Source: Escherichia phage phiEco32. From it: a stretch of DNA of 64,000 bases. The notes under the pieces were generated by a model. The model worked only from the letters and a program-made list of their open reading frames with translations, ran no database searches and had not been told where the DNA came from. Positions 39,533 through 49,926 of the stretch are shown one piece after another. A program made the translations under genes and the position numbers. Every line of letters begins with the position of its first letter. The first letter of the stretch is position 1. The stretch is taken from the sequence record NC_010324.1. One strand, written 5' to 3'.

Positions 39533-41377
39533 TTAGTGTGTATGCATCCAGTTAAGTCCAATCTGACAATCAGATGCCAGAGGACATTCCATGTTCAGAT
39601 ACTCGCCAGCTTTCTTAACACAAAGCTCAGTGTGCTCTTTGAGTTTCTGTACATCATTACGGTTTACTGAGAATTGACCTTCATCGTGCATATCAATTAC
39701 CTTAGCACAACGAACCTTATCTTTCTCAATCCACTTGTTAAGGAACATCATAGCATATTTCATAACAACAGCACCAGCACATTGCAGGAGTGTGTTAAGG
39801 GCTTTATGAACCATAACCTTACCAGTGGCATCCCGTCTCATTGTAATCTTACGACCATCAACTCCAATCAAGTATCCTTGAGCAGCTTTCTCTGTCATAC
39901 GATCGATGAGGATTGCAATACATGGGTTCTCTGCTAAGAAACGTGCTCGCATCACTGAACCTTCGTCAGCCCCACCACCTACAATTGAACCAAGCTTAGC
40001 ATCGCCAGCACCGTAGTTGAATGCATAGATAAATGTCTTAGCGTTGTCACGAGTAGGAAGACCAGCAAGTTTCTGGTTGTGGGAGTGGATATCACCTTCA
40101 AGGAGAATATCACGATACATAATAGCAGAAGCTAAACCACGTTCTGCCAGAGCTTTCTTAGCTGGGTTGTTCTCTTCAATTGCCTCAGCAAGCATATCCC
40201 TACACTCTTTAATGAGGTAGTGAGCGAGCATACGAAGTTCCAGTCCAGAACCATCATACCCTAAGAATACTTCTTTACCAGCGGGTATGTAATATTTGTA
40301 AGCGCCTACAGGTTTGTCTTTCTTCCCCGGCTTACCTTTCTCGTAAATTACGTTAGTACCTTTTCGTATATAACAACCATCAGGAACAACGTTAGTAATA
40401 ACGAAAGGACGAGAGTGATCACTGTCTGAGTTATAGTCAGACTCAAACAGACTGCGACACTCGTGACCAAACAAACCACGGGAGGGAATATTAACCACGA
40501 TACGATGTTTGAATCGAAAAGTTGGCGTAGCGCAGCTGTTAGCTTCTGCCGAAAGTTTACCATCTTCGCGTTCCTTTGCTATGAGTCCACTGATAAGACC
40601 TAGCCTGTGAGCCGCTACAACGCGTCTCTTAAGCAAACTTCCAACACTCCCTAGTTCACCCCCTAGCCCTTCTTCAAGAGTCTCCTCGAGGTTTGTAGGA
40701 GCTGTAGGCCACTTGTTTGATGTGGCTAATGCTTTCTTAATCTCATCAAACGTTACAGGATTACGGCGATTAGGGTTCAATCCCAAACCAAACACGTAAG
40801 CTTTCATGTAGTTCTTAGTTTTAAACCTGAAGTGCTTTTCTAAGAACTTCTTAATATCAGCGTCAACCATCTCGGCTGTCTGCTTTTGCTTAGCATTGCC
40901 TCGCATCCAAGCAGTATACCATGCTTGGTATGTTCCATACTTTCTCATATCTTTCTTAATTTCGAAAGTATTCCAAGGCTTCTTAGATACGTTAAACTCT
41001 GGAGGAAGAAAGCCCTCATCCATAAGAGCTTCTTTAACTCGTGCATCCTTCGATGGGTCAAAGTCTACATATTCGACACAGGTGAAAGCTCCACCAATGT
41101 CTTCTCTCTTCAGTCCAACCCTATCACAATAAGCTTGAGGCCACTTCTGCAAAGCCCCTGACTTCTTAAATGGCTTCATGTAAGTAGAGCCATCTAATCT
41201 CATCTTAGGTAAGAGAGGAATCAACTCTCTGTCAATATTAACAATAATCTCTTTAAGGAGGTGAACATACCACCGAGCATTTCTTCGGTTGAAACTCACT
41301 CCGTGCTTTGCTTGCTTAGAGATTATATCAGCGACAGTCATCTCTGTCAAAAATGGAAGAGCGTCCGGGTTGCTCAC
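39533..41377 (-). CDS. family A DNA polymerase, polymerase domain only
   Basis: Motif A LGYDGSGLELRMLAHY, motif B RDNAKTFIYAFNYGAG, motif C IDMHDEGQF; no 3'-5' exonuclease motifs in this ORF. Confidence 0.85.
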   Translation of the reverse strand: MSNPDALPFLTEMTVADIISKQAKHGVSFNRRNARWYVHLLKEIIVNIDRELIPLLPKMRLDGSTYMKPFKKSGALQKWPQAYCDRVGLKREDIGGAFTCVEYVDFDPSKDARVKEALMDEGFLPPEFNVSKKPWNTFEIKKDMRKYGTYQAWYTAWMRGNAKQKQTAEMVDADIKKFLEKHFRFKTKNYMKAYVFGLGLNPNRRNPVTFDEIKKALATSNKWPTAPTNLEETLEEGLGGELGSVGSLLKRRVVAAHRLGLISGLIAKEREDGKLSAEANSCATPTFRFKHRIVVNIPSRGLFGHECRSLFESDYNSDSDHSRPFVITNVVPDGCYIRKGTNVIYEKGKPGKKDKPVGAYKYYIPAGKEVFLGYDGSGLELRMLAHYLIKECRDMLAEAIEENNPAKKALAERGLASAIMYRDILLEGDIHSHNQKLAGLPTRDNAKTFIYAFNYGAGDAKLGSIVGGGADEGSVMRARFLAENPCIAILIDRMTEKAAQGYLIGVDGRKITMRRDATGKVMVHKALNTLLQCAGAVVMKYAMMFLNKWIEKDKVRCAKVIDMHDEGQFSVNRNDVQKLKEHTELCVKKAGEYLNMECPLASDCQIGLNWMHTH

Positions 41378-41393
41378 TTTATACTCCTTTAAA

Positions 41394-41807
41394 TTATTGG
41401 TAAAGTAAATCTGTAAATGCTTGGTTATCTTCTACTACATCCAAGGATGTGGAATCAACAGCATATGTTCTCATTGCTGCATTTGTTTGTGCCCAAGTAG
41501 GTGGAGAATAAGAAGACCTAACCTCACGAGGCTGCTCTCTGACTAGATGGGCCACAACTCTCTGATTAGCAACTTCTTCTCTTTCTCTAATAGCTCTCTG
41601 GATATAGGCCAGCTTCATGCCCCAAGCTTCTTCAAACTCTTGAGGATGCTTATCACTGATAACCACATACTGACGTTCAGGAATACCAGAGCGAATCTCT
41701 GATAATAATTCATGGAACAAATCTAGTTCATGTTCAGTGAGATTCATTTCAATATCATCCCACTTGAGAACTAAGAAACGGTTTTGGTGTCTAGCTGGTA
41801 ATGGCAT
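41394..41807 (-). CDS. hypothetical protein (137 aa)
   Basis: ORF track. Confidence 0.5.
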   Translation of the reverse strand: MPLPARHQNRFLVLKWDDIEMNLTEHELDLFHELLSEIRSGIPERQYVVISDKHPQEFEEAWGMKLAYIQRAIREREEVANQRVVAHLVREQPREVRSSYSPPTWAQTNAAMRTYAVDSTSLDVVEDNQAFTDLLYQ

Positions 41808-41808
41808 C

Positions 41809-41967
41809 CTACTCCACCTCTACTTCAATGTAAGTTCTCTCGCCAACATCGTCTTTTAAGACCCATGACTTGGCATCTTCTTCCGACTTAAAAGCTTTCA
41901 CAACGCTGTATCCGCCTTCCCATTCATCACCGAACCAGCGCTGTCCTACGTAAATGTATTCTTTCAT
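41809..41967 (-). CDS. small hypothetical protein (52 aa)
   Basis: Not in the ORF track; fills the gap between two track ORFs. Confidence 0.35.
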   Translation of the reverse strand: MKEYIYVGQRWFGDEWEGGYSVVKAFKSEEDAKSWVLKDDVGERTYIEVEVE

Positions 41968-48044: not shown

Positions 48045-48053
48045 TCTTATTCC

Positions 48054-49367
48054 TTAGTTATTTTCGTCTATTTCAAAAGAGATTCCACGACCCGCTTCAT
48101 CGGCAAACCGAACTGTACGGGTTTGAGGTTCTAATACTTCAGGGTTGTTGGCAATAAAGCGATCAGCGAGATTATCTACCACATCTTGGGCCACACCTTC
48201 ATCAGTCCACACAGCCCTAACAGGTGCGTTGATATCACCAACAGCAAAACCCTGACCAGAGAACTGGTGACGGCTAACAGTCAAACCGTTTGGTCGACCA
48301 CGAGAAGGACTAGCCATCCATCGCTCCATAGAATCACTTGTAATACCCCAAGCTTCTTCAAAAGATGTTCTACGAGTAGGGCTTACTCTTCGTGACTCTT
48401 GTGCTCTACGCATTGCAGGGGCTACAAACACCCCTTCAATTGCATTATGTCGGTTAGGTTCCTCTTCTCGACCAAGCAGATCACCACCCGTGTTAGTTGT
48501 TAAATTTGTCAACCCTTCAGACCAATACGCATGAATCTGACCAGAACCGTGAAGACTAGACATAATCTGAATCTCTTCATAAGGGATTCCAAAGAATCGA
48601 CTCATGTCTCGGTCAACACAATACGAGGGACTTGTCGTATCCTCAGCATAAGTAACCTGACCCCGTTCATCAACCAGATGATTAATCGGTTGAGGTGTAG
48701 GGAGGTACCGAGAGTGGGCCATATATTGGAGCGCAGCGGATGTAGAGGAGAATCTCAACACCTGTGAATTAGGCCACTTCTTATGAACATACTTAATTTC
48801 ACGAGCAGAGACAACTACTGGACAAGGAGAAGTCATAGACAGATATCCATGAGGGGTCATAAATAGATTGTCAAGAGTCATCGCACCACGGCACATCATA
48901 GGAAAATTATCCATAACCTCTTCAATAGAAGTAGGATAATTAAACATGAATTGGATTCGAACCCCATTCCACTGAAATTCAATAATATCAGTGAATGTTA
49001 ACAAAGAGCCTTCAGCGTAGGCTTCATTTGTGGCTTCAGCCAGAAGGGAAGAGTACTCAATATCTTGAGACTCAAGCCACTCTTTCACGTTACTTTCAAC
49101 CTCTCGTCCGAGATCTTGCCACTGGTCATGGCGGATAAAGGTATCTCGAGTTCTTGGTGCCTGTCCTCTGACAATAAAGATATCAATGTCATGAGGTGCT
49201 CTATTATTAAGAACAGCATCACGAACAGCCCCACCAGTGATGATGGGACAAATACAGTCTGGAATCAAGTTGTTGTTAATCAACTGTTCAATGAAGTGAC
49301 GACCAACAGTGATATCAGGTTGTTGAGCAACCTTATCTTCAATTCGGTTAATCGGGATAACAATCAT
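48054..49367 (-). CDS. nucleotidyltransferase (pol-beta superfamily, CCA-adding / poly(A) polymerase-like head)
   Basis: IITGGAVRDAVLNN...PHDIDIFI matches the GGAVRD plus DxD head-domain signature; start at Met 20 of the track ORF, just after the exonuclease stop. Confidence 0.55.
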   Translation of the reverse strand: MIVIPINRIEDKVAQQPDITVGRHFIEQLINNNLIPDCICPIITGGAVRDAVLNNRAPHDIDIFIVRGQAPRTRDTFIRHDQWQDLGREVESNVKEWLESQDIEYSSLLAEATNEAYAEGSLLTFTDIIEFQWNGVRIQFMFNYPTSIEEVMDNFPMMCRGAMTLDNLFMTPHGYLSMTSPCPVVVSAREIKYVHKKWPNSQVLRFSSTSAALQYMAHSRYLPTPQPINHLVDERGQVTYAEDTTSPSYCVDRDMSRFFGIPYEEIQIMSSLHGSGQIHAYWSEGLTNLTTNTGGDLLGREEEPNRHNAIEGVFVAPAMRRAQESRRVSPTRRTSFEEAWGITSDSMERWMASPSRGRPNGLTVSRHQFSGQGFAVGDINAPVRAVWTDEGVAQDVVDNLADRFIANNPEVLEPQTRTVRFADEAGRGISFEIDENN

Positions 49368-49368
49368 T

Positions 49369-49926
49369 TTACATTTTCCAATATAATGAAGGTGGGTCGT
49401 AAGGGTCGAATCCTGTGAGTTCACACAAGAAAAGATAAACCTTAACAGTTAAGTTAACGTCCTGTTCACAATAAGTAAACATATCTTCAGTGAAAGCATC
49501 CCATGCTTCCTCTTGCTCACCATAATCGCCCTTAAGCTCTCCTAAGAACTCACCCCACTGCTTCAAACCATGACCTCTTGGGCCACGTCTAGGGTCGCCT
49601 TTCGGATACTCAGGACTGTCACCAATACGGTCAGGTTTAAGATATCGACTAAGACATAAAGTGTCAAAGACGTTAAAATGATAGTTGATTAAAGAGGGAT
49701 ACATCTTCTTCAGAGCTGGTAAGTCGAAGTCAATAATATTATGACCTACGAGCACATCAGCTTCTGTAAGTTTACGAATCCCATCTTCAATTTGGTGAGG
49801 CCGATAGCCCCACCTTTCACCAGTTTCAACATCAAAGATGTAAATACACCATACTTTAGTTATGTCATCGTACAGTGCATTACTCTCGATATCGAATGCA
49901 AACACTTTCTTCTTTTTCTTTACCAC
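49369..49926 (-). CDS. 3'-5' exonuclease (DnaQ-like, DNA polymerase A proofreading domain) as a separate gene
   Basis: Exo I FAFDIES, Exo [13 protein letters not shown], Exo III YCEQDV. Confidence 0.8.

What the first reader, a model, noticed from the sequence alone, without database searches (positions are those of the whole stretch)
39533..49926. Family A DNA polymerase split into separate exonuclease and polymerase genes ~8 kb apart
Seen in sequence: 49369..49926 carries Exo I/II/III motifs ([19 protein letters not shown]) and ends at a stop; 39533..41377 carries polymerase motifs A, B and C but no exonuclease motifs. About 20 unrelated genes lie between them. Inference: proofreading and polymerisation are supplied in trans, or the exonuclease serves another role.
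Basis: partly seen in the sequence, partly recalled or inferred. Interest (0 to 1): 0.5.

Follow-up and report, generated by a model that had tools for sequence, protein, structure and literature searches.

The report
Split T7-type DNA polymerase, already described
This coliphage of the phiEco32/SU10 group (Kuravirus) encodes the proofreading and the DNA-copying halves of a T7-like DNA polymerase as two genes 8 kb apart; the split is real and probably works as a two-piece enzyme, but it is already annotated and described for this phage group.

Summary
ORF 49369..49926 (-) is a 185-aa DEDDy 3'-5' exonuclease with intact Exo I/II/III motifs. ORF 39533..41377 (-) is a 614-aa family A polymerase with motifs A/B/C and no exonuclease domain. 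They lie 7,991 nt and 20 ORFs apart.

The window is a Kuravirus, with the polymerase 99.7-99.8% identical to SU10 and Bas91. Both halves match T7 gp5 best. In one PHROG polymerase profile they occupy adjacent, non-overlapping positions, and 103 single-chain proteins (the seven scanned with Pfam are family A polymerases) match both halves. The break falls in the interdomain linker, with no room for intein halves and no intron signal.

Catalytic residues are essentially invariant in 56 standalone exonucleases and 74 exo-less polymerases. The order primase/helicase, exo, gap, pol is kept in every split lineage where the upstream sequence was available, with gaps of 1.9 to 8.6 kb. It is collinear with the fused genes of T7 and RSB2. 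AlphaFold2 docks the two products into a T7 gp5-like body (pTM 0.88-0.89).

The split is already published for LUZ24-like phages and phiEco32 (2012) and for all Kuraviruses (2023). A comparable fission was analysed in cyanophages (NAR 2023). Trans proofreading has not been tested biochemically. Novelty: already known. Interest: low.

The parts
49369..49926 (-). 3'-5' proofreading exonuclease subunit (185 aa, DEDDy; D12, E14, D68, Y152, D156). It has a conserved C-terminal tail GFDPxxPP (residues ~172-180, window 49372..49413 with the remaining tail residues).
   Evidence: Best solved relative is T7 gp5 residues 3-178, E=2.4e-13. Matches PHROG 'DNA polymerase exonuclease subunit'. Catalytic residues are kept in 54-56 of 56 standalone homologues. 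The tail is visible in the alignment.
39533..41377 (-). Polymerase subunit (614 aa) with thumb, palm and fingers of a T7-type family A polymerase. Motif A D375/E380; motif B R443/K447/Y451; motif C H564-D565-E566. No exonuclease domain.
   Evidence: Best solved relative is T7 gp5, E=1.2e-32. 99.8% identical to 'DNA polymerase' of Bas91 and 99.7% to that of SU10. Motif residues are kept in 72-74 of 74 exo-less homologues.
49920..51710 (-). T7 gp4-like primase/helicase. Its stop codon overlaps the exo GTG start by 7 nt, which suggests translational coupling.
   Evidence: Pfam DnaB_C and a weak Toprim_2 hit. Overlap read. The same adjacency occurs in Bruynoghevirus, SE131, L009 and L010, and next to the fused polymerase in RSB2; in T7 two small genes separate them.
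41378..49368 (-). Intervening cassette of 20 ORFs. It includes a nucleotidyltransferase, dCTP deaminase, three small paralogues, a Dps/ferritin-like protein, thioredoxin, ThyX, a NAD-ligase Ia domain and PhoH.
   Evidence: The equivalent gap measures 1.9-8.6 kb in other split lineages, and over 10 kb in one more where the exo gene was not reached.
45413..45688 (-). Phage thioredoxin (91 aa). It is a candidate processivity partner of the polymerase by analogy with T7 gp5 and host thioredoxin. This is inferred, not tested.
   Evidence: Pfam Thioredoxin, E=2e-13. The hypothesis is stated for the related phage Privateer. Conserved in all five C3-morphotype phages compared in the SU10 paper.
46823..46894 (-). 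Intergenic gap corresponding to the SU10 CDS69/CDS68 boundary between the 'early' and 'middle' gene clusters. This places exo in the early cluster and pol in the middle cluster.
   Evidence: The SU10 paper classes its genes by homology to phiEco32. ORFs mapped through. A weak sigma70-like site lies at 46905..46878.
32082..32924 (-). Separately encoded 5'-3' exonuclease (FEN-like). It is the third activity that bacterial Pol I carries in a single chain.
   Evidence: Pfam 5_3_exonuc_N, E=7e-6, below the curated cutoff. The homologue is annotated '5'-3' exonuclease' in SU10. The Kuravirus paper lists it as a separate subunit.

Best explanation
The two genes encode the two halves of one T7 gp5-type replicative DNA polymerase. 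An ancient gene fission in the linker between the 3'-5' exonuclease domain and the polymerase domain separated them. The exonuclease gene stayed directly behind the primase/helicase gene, overlapping it by 7 nt. Other genes, mostly for nucleotide metabolism, then accumulated between the halves, about 8 kb of them in Kuraviruses. The 185-aa exonuclease and the 614-aa polymerase most likely re-associate without a covalent link into a gp5-like heterodimer. In that complex, mismatched primer ends would shuttle from the polymerase site to the exonuclease site as in the single-chain enzyme. Shown here: domain identities, intact catalytic residues, position of the break, gene order, and distribution of the split. 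Inferred: physical association and proofreading in trans.
For: Both halves hit T7 gp5 best, exo on residues 3-178 and pol on about 295-704. In the single PHROG polymerase profile phrog_17, exo maps to positions 667-826 and pol to 836-1233, so the two are adjacent and do not overlap. 103 single-chain proteins match both halves, and the seven examples scanned with Pfam carry DNA_pol_A. The alignment puts the break in the interdomain linker: exo has about 15 aa beyond the last shared helix, and pol has about 10 aa before the first shared helix. An exhaustive search finds standalone proteins of 160-200 aa as nearest relatives, followed by N-terminal domains of 570-700-aa polymerases. The 110 or so nearest relatives of pol all lack an exonuclease domain. 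Catalytic residues are nearly invariant in 56 standalone exos and 74 exo-less pols. The order primase/helicase, exo, gap, pol holds in the window, Bas91, SU10, Bruynoghevirus, SE131 and two metagenomic contigs. It is collinear with the fused genes of T7 and RSB2. Identities of exo and pol fall in parallel across lineages. AlphaFold2 on the direct concatenation gives pLDDT 94 and pTM 0.89. With a 40-aa Gly/Ser linker and only 3 fused rows among the 133 rows aligned to the query, it gives pTM 0.88. Both models superpose on whole T7 gp5 chains at TM 0.70-0.79. Published genome papers read it the same way, and a comparable cyanophage fission was modelled as a complex.
Against: No biochemical or genetic evidence for association or for proofreading in trans appears in the papers I read. 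The AlphaFold2 tests used one artificial chain, and T7 gp5 structures were available to the network in training. The second alignment had 3 fused guide rows and misplaced the exo C-terminal tails. The SU10 paper places exo in the early cluster and pol in the middle cluster, so the two need not be made in equal amounts or at the same time. SU10 proteomics detected pol but not exo. In my rough NJ tree only 32 of 46 standalone exos form one pure clade, and the fused sister group of the pol tree is not recovered in the exo tree.
Confidence: 0.8

Rival explanations
1. The exonuclease is an independent nuclease with another main job, such as early host-DNA or primer processing, recombination or counter-defence. 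The polymerase would then replicate without dedicated proofreading.
For: Exo sits in the cluster classed as early, together with primase/helicase, while pol is classed as middle. Exo was not detected with pol in SU10 proteomics. The two genes are 8 kb apart.
Against: Its nearest non-standalone relatives are all polymerase-attached proofreading domains. No RNase T/DnaQ family hit was found. Every split lineage examined with enough flank carries both genes in the ancestral order. AlphaFold2 predicts confident docking on pol. Early transcription is said to read through into the middle genes.
Confidence: 0.12
2. The exonuclease joins the replisome mainly through the primase/helicase, to which its gene is translationally coupled, rather than through a stable gp5-like heterodimer with pol.
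For: A 7-nt start/stop overlap with the primase/helicase gene. Adjacency to that gene is conserved in the split lineages; in L009 one small ORF lies between them.
Against: That adjacency is simply the ancestral T7-like order, gp4 followed by gp5. The predicted exo-pol interface is confident without any helicase present.
Confidence: 0.05
3. The split is not real at the protein level. The halves would be joined by protein splicing or RNA splicing, or the separation would be an assembly or frameshift artefact.
For: Relatives carry mobile insertions in the pol gene: FH3 has an HNH ORF with a weak group I intron signal, and LUZ24 has an intron.
Against: 20 ORFs in 8 kb lie between the halves. The arrangement recurs in about 96-97 close phage records and in distant lineages. 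Only about 15 and 10 aa lie outside the shared domains, too short for split-intein halves. No Hint or intein Pfam hit. No Rfam hit in 39000..50500. The FH3 insertion is at motif C, not at the exo/pol boundary.
Confidence: 0.02

Closest known systems
phiEco32 / SU10 / YF01 / Bas91 (genus Kuravirus) polymerase and exonuclease genes
   Same: These are the same genes. Pol is 99.7-99.8% identical and exo 98.4% identical, in the same order and with similar spacing. Bas91 annotates the exo as 'DNA polymerase exonuclease subunit'. The 2023 Kuravirus paper states that separately encoded pol, 5'-3' exo and 3'-5' exo are common to all group members.
   Different: Nothing of substance. The gap is 7,991 nt here, 8,085 nt in Bas91 and 8,634 nt in SU10.
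LUZ24/PaP3/tf group (Bruynoghevirus) 'DNA polymerase part I/II'
   Same: Separate exo and pol genes in the order primase/helicase, exo, pol. Pol is 39% and exo 33% identical to the window's proteins. The split is described in the literature, with a reference to phiEco32.
   Different: The gap is only 1.9 kb with 7 small genes. The polymerase is shorter (545 aa) and lacks part of the thumb insertion.
S-SBP1-like cyanopodovirus split PolA (Czernecki et al., NAR 2023)
   Same: [quoted passage not shown]
   Different: That fission is recent: a +1 frameshift leaves the two genes adjacent and overlapping. Here the fission is old, shared by several phage genera, and the halves are 2 to more than 8 kb apart. 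That paper does not mention Kuravirus or LUZ24.
T7 gp5 (single-chain replicative family A polymerase with thioredoxin)
   Same: Best sequence and structure match for both halves. Same motifs, including Tyr at the T7 Y526 position. Same neighbourhood next to a gp4-like primase/helicase.
   Different: T7 gp5 is one 704-aa chain. The T7 thioredoxin-binding loop is about 25 aa longer. The window's pol has an extra helical insertion of about 100 aa in the thumb region, and the phage encodes its own thioredoxin.
E. coli Pol III alpha/epsilon and archaeal PolD DP2/DP1
   Same: Polymerisation and 3'-5' proofreading are carried by separate subunits. The Pol III case is from my own knowledge. The PolD analogy is drawn.
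   Different: These belong to unrelated polymerase families (C and D). The analogy is functional only and does not imply membership.

Membership tests
Family A DNA polymerase, T7-like subfamily | Polymerase motifs A (DxxxLE), B (RxxxKxxxYG) and C (HDE) | tested here: met
   Residues 375-382, 443-456 and 564-567. Pfam DNA_pol_A, E=2.5e-23.
Family A DNA polymerase, T7-like subfamily | Tyrosine at motif B position B3 (T7 Y526), given as typical of the T7-like cluster | tested here: met
   Y451 aligns with T7 Y526 and is present in 74 of 74 exo-less relatives. The criterion is quoted.
Family A DNA polymerase, T7-like subfamily | Closest solved structure or sequence is T7 gp5 | tested here: met
   phmmer E=1.2e-32 for pol and 2.4e-13 for exo. 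Foldseek E about 1e-35, TM 0.70-0.79.
Family A DNA polymerase, T7-like subfamily | Exonuclease and polymerase domains in one polypeptide | tested here: not met
   Two ORFs 7,991 nt apart.
Family A DNA polymerase, T7-like subfamily | Thioredoxin-binding domain used with thioredoxin as processivity factor | tested here: inconclusive
   A weak alignment covers the T7 TBD region (pol 63-135 against T7 289-357), but the segment is shorter. A phage thioredoxin gene is present. Binding was not tested.
DEDDy proofreading exonuclease of PolA type | Exo I (DxE), Exo II (Nx3(F/Y)D) and Exo III (Yx3D) with all four carboxylates | tested here: met
   D12, E14, N63, D68, Y152 and D156. Pfam DNA_pol_A_exo1 above its cutoff.
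Split exo/pol T7-like PolA (S-SBP1 type) | Separate exo and pol genes that together cover an uninterrupted homologue | tested here: met
   phrog_17 positions 667-826 and 836-1233. Junction alignment.
Split exo/pol T7-like PolA (S-SBP1 type) | Adjacent, overlapping genes created by a +1 frameshift | tested here: not met
   The genes are 8 kb apart with 20 ORFs between them. This fission is in a different and older lineage.
Split exo/pol T7-like PolA (S-SBP1 type) | Predicted complex superposes on a single-chain PolA | tested here: met
   pTM 0.88-0.89 and a T7 gp5-like arrangement. These are single-chain surrogates for a complex prediction.
Standalone DnaQ / RNase T nucleases | Best family match is RNase_T/DnaQ-like and nearest relatives are free-standing cellular nucleases | tested here: not met
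   No RNase_T hit at E<=10. Relatives are phage standalone exos and PolA N-terminal domains.
Split-intein or intron-interrupted gene | Intein (Hint) blocks at the new termini, or a self-splicing intron at the boundary | tested here: not met
   Only about 15 and 10 aa lie beyond the shared domains. No Hint Pfam hit. No Rfam hit in the region.
Two-subunit polymerase with proofreading in trans (functional class) | Physical association of the two products and exonuclease-dependent fidelity | not testable with these tools
   Only in-silico docking was possible. The papers I read report no assay.

The most novel reading that the evidence does not exclude
The fission is more than a neutral accident. 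It would let the phage time and dose proofreading separately from polymerisation, because exo lies in the early cluster and is translationally coupled to primase/helicase while pol lies in the middle cluster. The breakpoint would also have become a preferred landing site for accessory genes, growing from 1.9 kb to 8.6 kb across the measured lineages and possibly beyond 10 kb.
Probability: 0.2. Interest if true: 0.4.

Novelty: already known. Interest (0 to 1): 0.15.

Why it matters
The feature shows that a family A replicase tolerates separation of its proofreading domain, and that this arrangement has persisted across several phage genera. That bears on how polymerase fidelity modules evolve, and it helps annotators, who often label the 185-aa gene 'hypothetical' or 'DNA polymerase'. 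The arrangement itself is already annotated and published for this phage group. The remaining open point is experimental: whether the two products form a complex and proofread in trans, and whether their placement in different temporal clusters has any consequence.

Tried and rejected
1. The original phiEco32 paper (Savalia 2008, PMC2587145) is not held. The claim that it reported the split therefore rests on a citing paper.
2. Alignment A2 (linker query, no fused guide rows) put the N-terminal ~125 residues of most polymerase rows into exonuclease columns. Local MAFFT variants did the same. A2 was discarded and A3, with 3 fused guide rows, was used instead. In A3, 41 exo rows still have their 12-28-aa tails placed beyond the linker.
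3. NJ trees are rough. The polymerase tree gives one exo-less clade, but the sampling was of nearest neighbours. The exonuclease tree gives a pure clade for only 32 of 46 standalone sequences and does not recover the same fused sister group. A single fission is therefore likely but not proven.
4. The contig holding P0088 (L008) did not reach the exo gene within 10 kb upstream. It gives only a lower bound and no proof that an exo gene is present.
5. The ORF just upstream of pol was tested as a possible decayed exonuclease, with no similarity found.
6. Rfam scans of the window found nothing.
7. A literature search for biochemical work on such split enzymes found none.
8. Coordinates of the predicted models were not available, so I did not measure interface residues.
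Full report
**1. What the window is**

The polymerase ORF is 99.8% identical at protein level to the 'DNA polymerase' of Escherichia phages Bas91, Bas90, MN03 and YF01, and 99.7% to that of SU10. SU10 is classified in genus Kuravirus, subfamily Gordonclarkvirinae. The window is therefore a phiEco32/SU10-type coliphage. The annotated records of Bas91 and SU10 show the same gene series as the window.

**2. The observation**

ORF 49369..49926 (-) gives a 185-aa protein. It carries FDIES at residues 11-15, GHNIIDFD at 61-68 and YCEQDV at 152-157. ORF 39533..41377 (-) gives a 614-aa protein with DGSGLELR at 375-382, RDNAKTFIYAFNYG at 443-456 and HDEG at 564-567.

- Pfam assigns DNA_pol_A_exo1 (E=6e-9) to the first and DNA_pol_A (E=2.5e-23) to the second. 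The second has no exonuclease family hit.
- The two genes are 7,991 nt apart, with 20 minus-strand ORFs between them.
- Bas91 also annotates 20 CDS between its two genes.
- The description 'unrelated genes' needs correcting. The interval holds a nucleotidyltransferase, dCTP deaminase, a Dps/ferritin-like protein, thioredoxin, ThyX, a NAD-ligase Ia domain and PhoH.
- Only one copy of each half exists in the window. The ORF upstream of pol is not an exonuclease relic.

**3. Both halves come from one T7-type polymerase**

- **Solved structures.** The exo protein's only hits are T7 gp5, at residues 3-178 (E=2.4e-13). The pol protein's best hits are T7 gp5 (E=1.2e-32), far ahead of Klenow and Bst.
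- **PHROGs.** Exo matches 'DNA polymerase exonuclease subunit' families. In the single-chain polymerase profile phrog_17, exo maps to positions 667-826 and pol to 836-1233, which are adjacent and do not overlap.
- **Exhaustive search with exo** (1.84 billion representatives). It finds 2,810 relatives. The nearest are standalone proteins of 160-200 aa. Next come the N-terminal ~165 residues of 570-700-aa proteins at about 40-45% identity. The seven long proteins I scanned carry DNA_pol_A.
- **Proteins matching both halves.** 103 single chains, T7 gp5 included, match both.
- **No RNase T/DnaQ link.** No such Pfam family appears even at E<=10.

**4. Where the break lies**

I aligned the concatenated halves with T7 gp5, fused relatives, standalone exos and exo-less pols. 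The exo chain ends about 15 residues after the Exo III helix that it shares with fused enzymes. The pol chain starts about 10 residues before the first shared polymerase-domain helix (…EMTVADIISKQAKHGVSFN…). In fused relatives and in T7, this helix follows directly after a short linker.

The fission is therefore in the interdomain linker. There is no space for split-intein halves and no Hint domain. Rfam gives no hit in 39000..50500 at E<=0.1, and none in the whole window at gathering thresholds. Standalone exos of the Kuravirus/7-11-like lineages share a C-terminal tail, GFDPxxPP. In both models the first part of this tail is confidently placed. It may contribute to the interface, but that is inference.

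**5. Both partners are under selection for activity**

Among 56 standalone exos, conservation is D12 in 55, E14 in 56, N63 in 56, D68 in 56, Y152 in 54 and D156 in 56. Among 74 exo-less pols, D375, E380, R443, K447, Y451, Y455 and H564 are kept in all 74, and D565 and E566 in 72.

**6. Distribution and gene order**

The 110 or so nearest relatives of pol, down to about 36% identity, all lack an exonuclease domain. They include Vibrio phage Vp_R1, Aeromonas phage BUCT695 and Pseudomonas 'DNA polymerase part II' proteins. Fused forms appear only further out. All close relatives of exo are standalone.

In the phage collection, 97 records carry pol at 80% identity or more, and 96 carry exo at 60% or more. 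I did not match these counts record by record.

The order primase/helicase, exo, gap, pol holds in every split lineage where the upstream sequence was available:

| Source | Gap from exo to pol |
|---|---|
| Window | 7,991 nt |
| Bas91 | 8,085 nt |
| SU10 | 8,634 nt |
| Salmonella phage SE131 | 6,772 nt |
| Bruynoghevirus WRAIR_EPa83 | 1,927 nt |
| Metagenomic contig L009 | 3,223 nt |
| Metagenomic contig L010 | 2,528 nt |

- On one further contig (L008), the gap exceeds 10 kb if an exo gene lies upstream; none was reached.
- In RSB2 the fused polymerase directly follows the primase/helicase gene, and in T7 two small genes lie between. The split lineages therefore keep the ancestral order with material inserted at the breakpoint.
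- Exo and pol identities to the window fall in parallel: SE131 49/46%, L009 46/41%, Bruynoghevirus 33/39%, L010 31/37%.
- Rough NJ trees put all 41 sampled exo-less pols in one clade, next to four fused proteins. They put 32 of 46 standalone exos in one pure clade. This fits one old fission but does not prove it.

**7. Do the products re-associate?**

Only in-silico tests were possible.

- **Direct concatenation.** With an alignment containing 60 fused rows, AlphaFold2 gave mean pLDDT 94 and pTM 0.89, with lower confidence only at the junction. Foldseek matched whole T7 gp5 chains (E about 4e-35, TM normalised to target 0.70-0.78).
- **Weakened covalent and alignment bias.** I repeated the run with a 40-aa Gly/Ser linker and an alignment in which only 3 of the 133 rows aligned to the query are fused. 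The result was pTM 0.88, with pLDDT below 50 only in the linker. The T7 gp5 superposition was the same (TM 0.70-0.79).
- **Caveats.** This is a single-chain surrogate for a complex prediction. T7 gp5 structures were available to the network in training. The exo tails are imperfectly aligned in A3.

**8. Expression context**

The exo GTG start overlaps the primase/helicase stop by 7 nt, and pol has its own AAGGAG ribosome-binding site. The SU10 paper classes its CDS 69-125 as early and CDS 25-68 as middle, by homology to phiEco32. It notes that early transcription may read through. That puts exo (CDS75) and primase/helicase (CDS76) in the early cluster and pol (CDS51) in the middle cluster. The boundary maps to window 46823..46894. 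SU10 proteomics detected pol, thioredoxin, the Dps-like protein and PhoH, but did not list exo. This is the main hint that the split could allow separate regulation, and it is untested.

**9. Comparison with what is known**

- The phage tf paper (2012) states that polymerase and 3'-exonuclease are separate genes in all LUZ24-group phages, and that a similar organisation was reported for phiEco32.
- The 2023 Kuravirus paper states that pol, a 5'-3' exonuclease and a 3'-5' exonuclease are separately encoded in all group members. It says the same of 7-11, Privateer, Vp_R1 and BUCT695.
- GenBank records already label the gene 'DNA polymerase exonuclease subunit'.
- Czernecki et al. (NAR 2023) analysed an independent, recent fission in S-SBP1-like cyanophages, with adjacent genes created by a +1 frameshift. 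They modelled the complex and called it the first such case in PolAs. They do not mention the Kuravirus or LUZ24 cases.
- None of the papers I read reports biochemical characterisation of such a split enzyme.

**10. Verdict**

The feature is already known for exactly this phage group. This analysis adds several details:

- the mapping of the breakpoint;
- the near-invariance of catalytic residues in both partners;
- the conserved order with a gap ranging from 1.9 kb to 8.6 kb in the measured lineages;
- the placement of the halves in different temporal clusters;
- docking models.

Interest is low (0.15). The most novel reading still allowed is that the fission serves separate regulation of proofreading and created an insertion hotspot (probability about 0.2).

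Noticed in passing
L007 (Escherichia phage FH3) 1992..2599; corresponds to window ~39685/39686, codons H564|D565 of pol: In FH3, and by tblastn also in phages 1-6af and 1-6bf, the pol gene is interrupted by 608 bp exactly inside motif C (H|DE). The insert carries a 131-aa HNH-type ORF and a weak group I intron match (26 bits, E=6.6e-4, below the gathering score). The window lacks this insert. Other relatives have ~450-aa pol fragments (P0079-P0082; BUCT695 P0164), which suggests a second interruption near motif B.
   Followed up: partly
window 41322..41350 (-): The only perfect sigma70 consensus in the 64-kb window (TTGACA, 17 nt, TATAAT, with a TG-extended -10) lies inside the first 60 nt of the pol ORF on the coding strand. 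Chance expectation is 0.08 per window, and 8 of 100 shuffles had at least one match. The sequence is identical in SU10, Bas91 and FH3 and absent in distant relatives. Its function is unknown.
   Followed up: partly
window 44230..44559 (-): A 109-aa protein that consists only of the N-terminal NAD+-binding Ia domain of NAD-dependent DNA ligase (PF22745, E=7e-35). Relatives annotate it as 'DNA ligase', but it lacks the catalytic domains.
   Followed up: no
window 40688..40987 (-), pol residues ~131-230: A confidently modelled helical insertion of about 100 aa (pLDDT>90) in the thumb region, relative to T7 gp5 and to the short fused relatives. It has no Pfam match. It is shorter or absent in LUZ24-like polymerases (545 aa).
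   Followed up: partly
window 46895..47510 (-) and 41971..42514 (-): Three tandem small paralogues (69, 69 and 65 aa, all ending in ...YY or ...HY) and a tandem pair (94 and 85 aa, both ending ...PFPKG). None has a family match.
   Followed up: no
window 48054..49424 (-): The nucleotidyltransferase ORF as listed starts at a GTG that overlaps exo by 56 nt. An ATG at 49367, 2 nt after the exo stop, gives a non-overlapping gene. In SU10 and Bas91 the homologous gene likewise starts 2 nt after the exo stop. The only Pfam hit is a weak PolyA_pol head-domain match (E=0.002, below cutoff).
   Followed up: no
window 45413..45688 (-): A phage-encoded thioredoxin lies between the two polymerase halves. 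The Privateer paper proposes it as the processivity factor of the T7-like polymerase. No thioredoxin is annotated in the Bruynoghevirus or SE131 regions I looked at.
   Followed up: partly
window 31450..31902 (-): An HNH endonuclease with an AP2 DNA-binding domain (HNH_3 E=1e-14, AP2 E=2e-6, the latter below its Pfam cutoff). It is a likely free-standing homing endonuclease in the middle-gene cluster.
   Followed up: no
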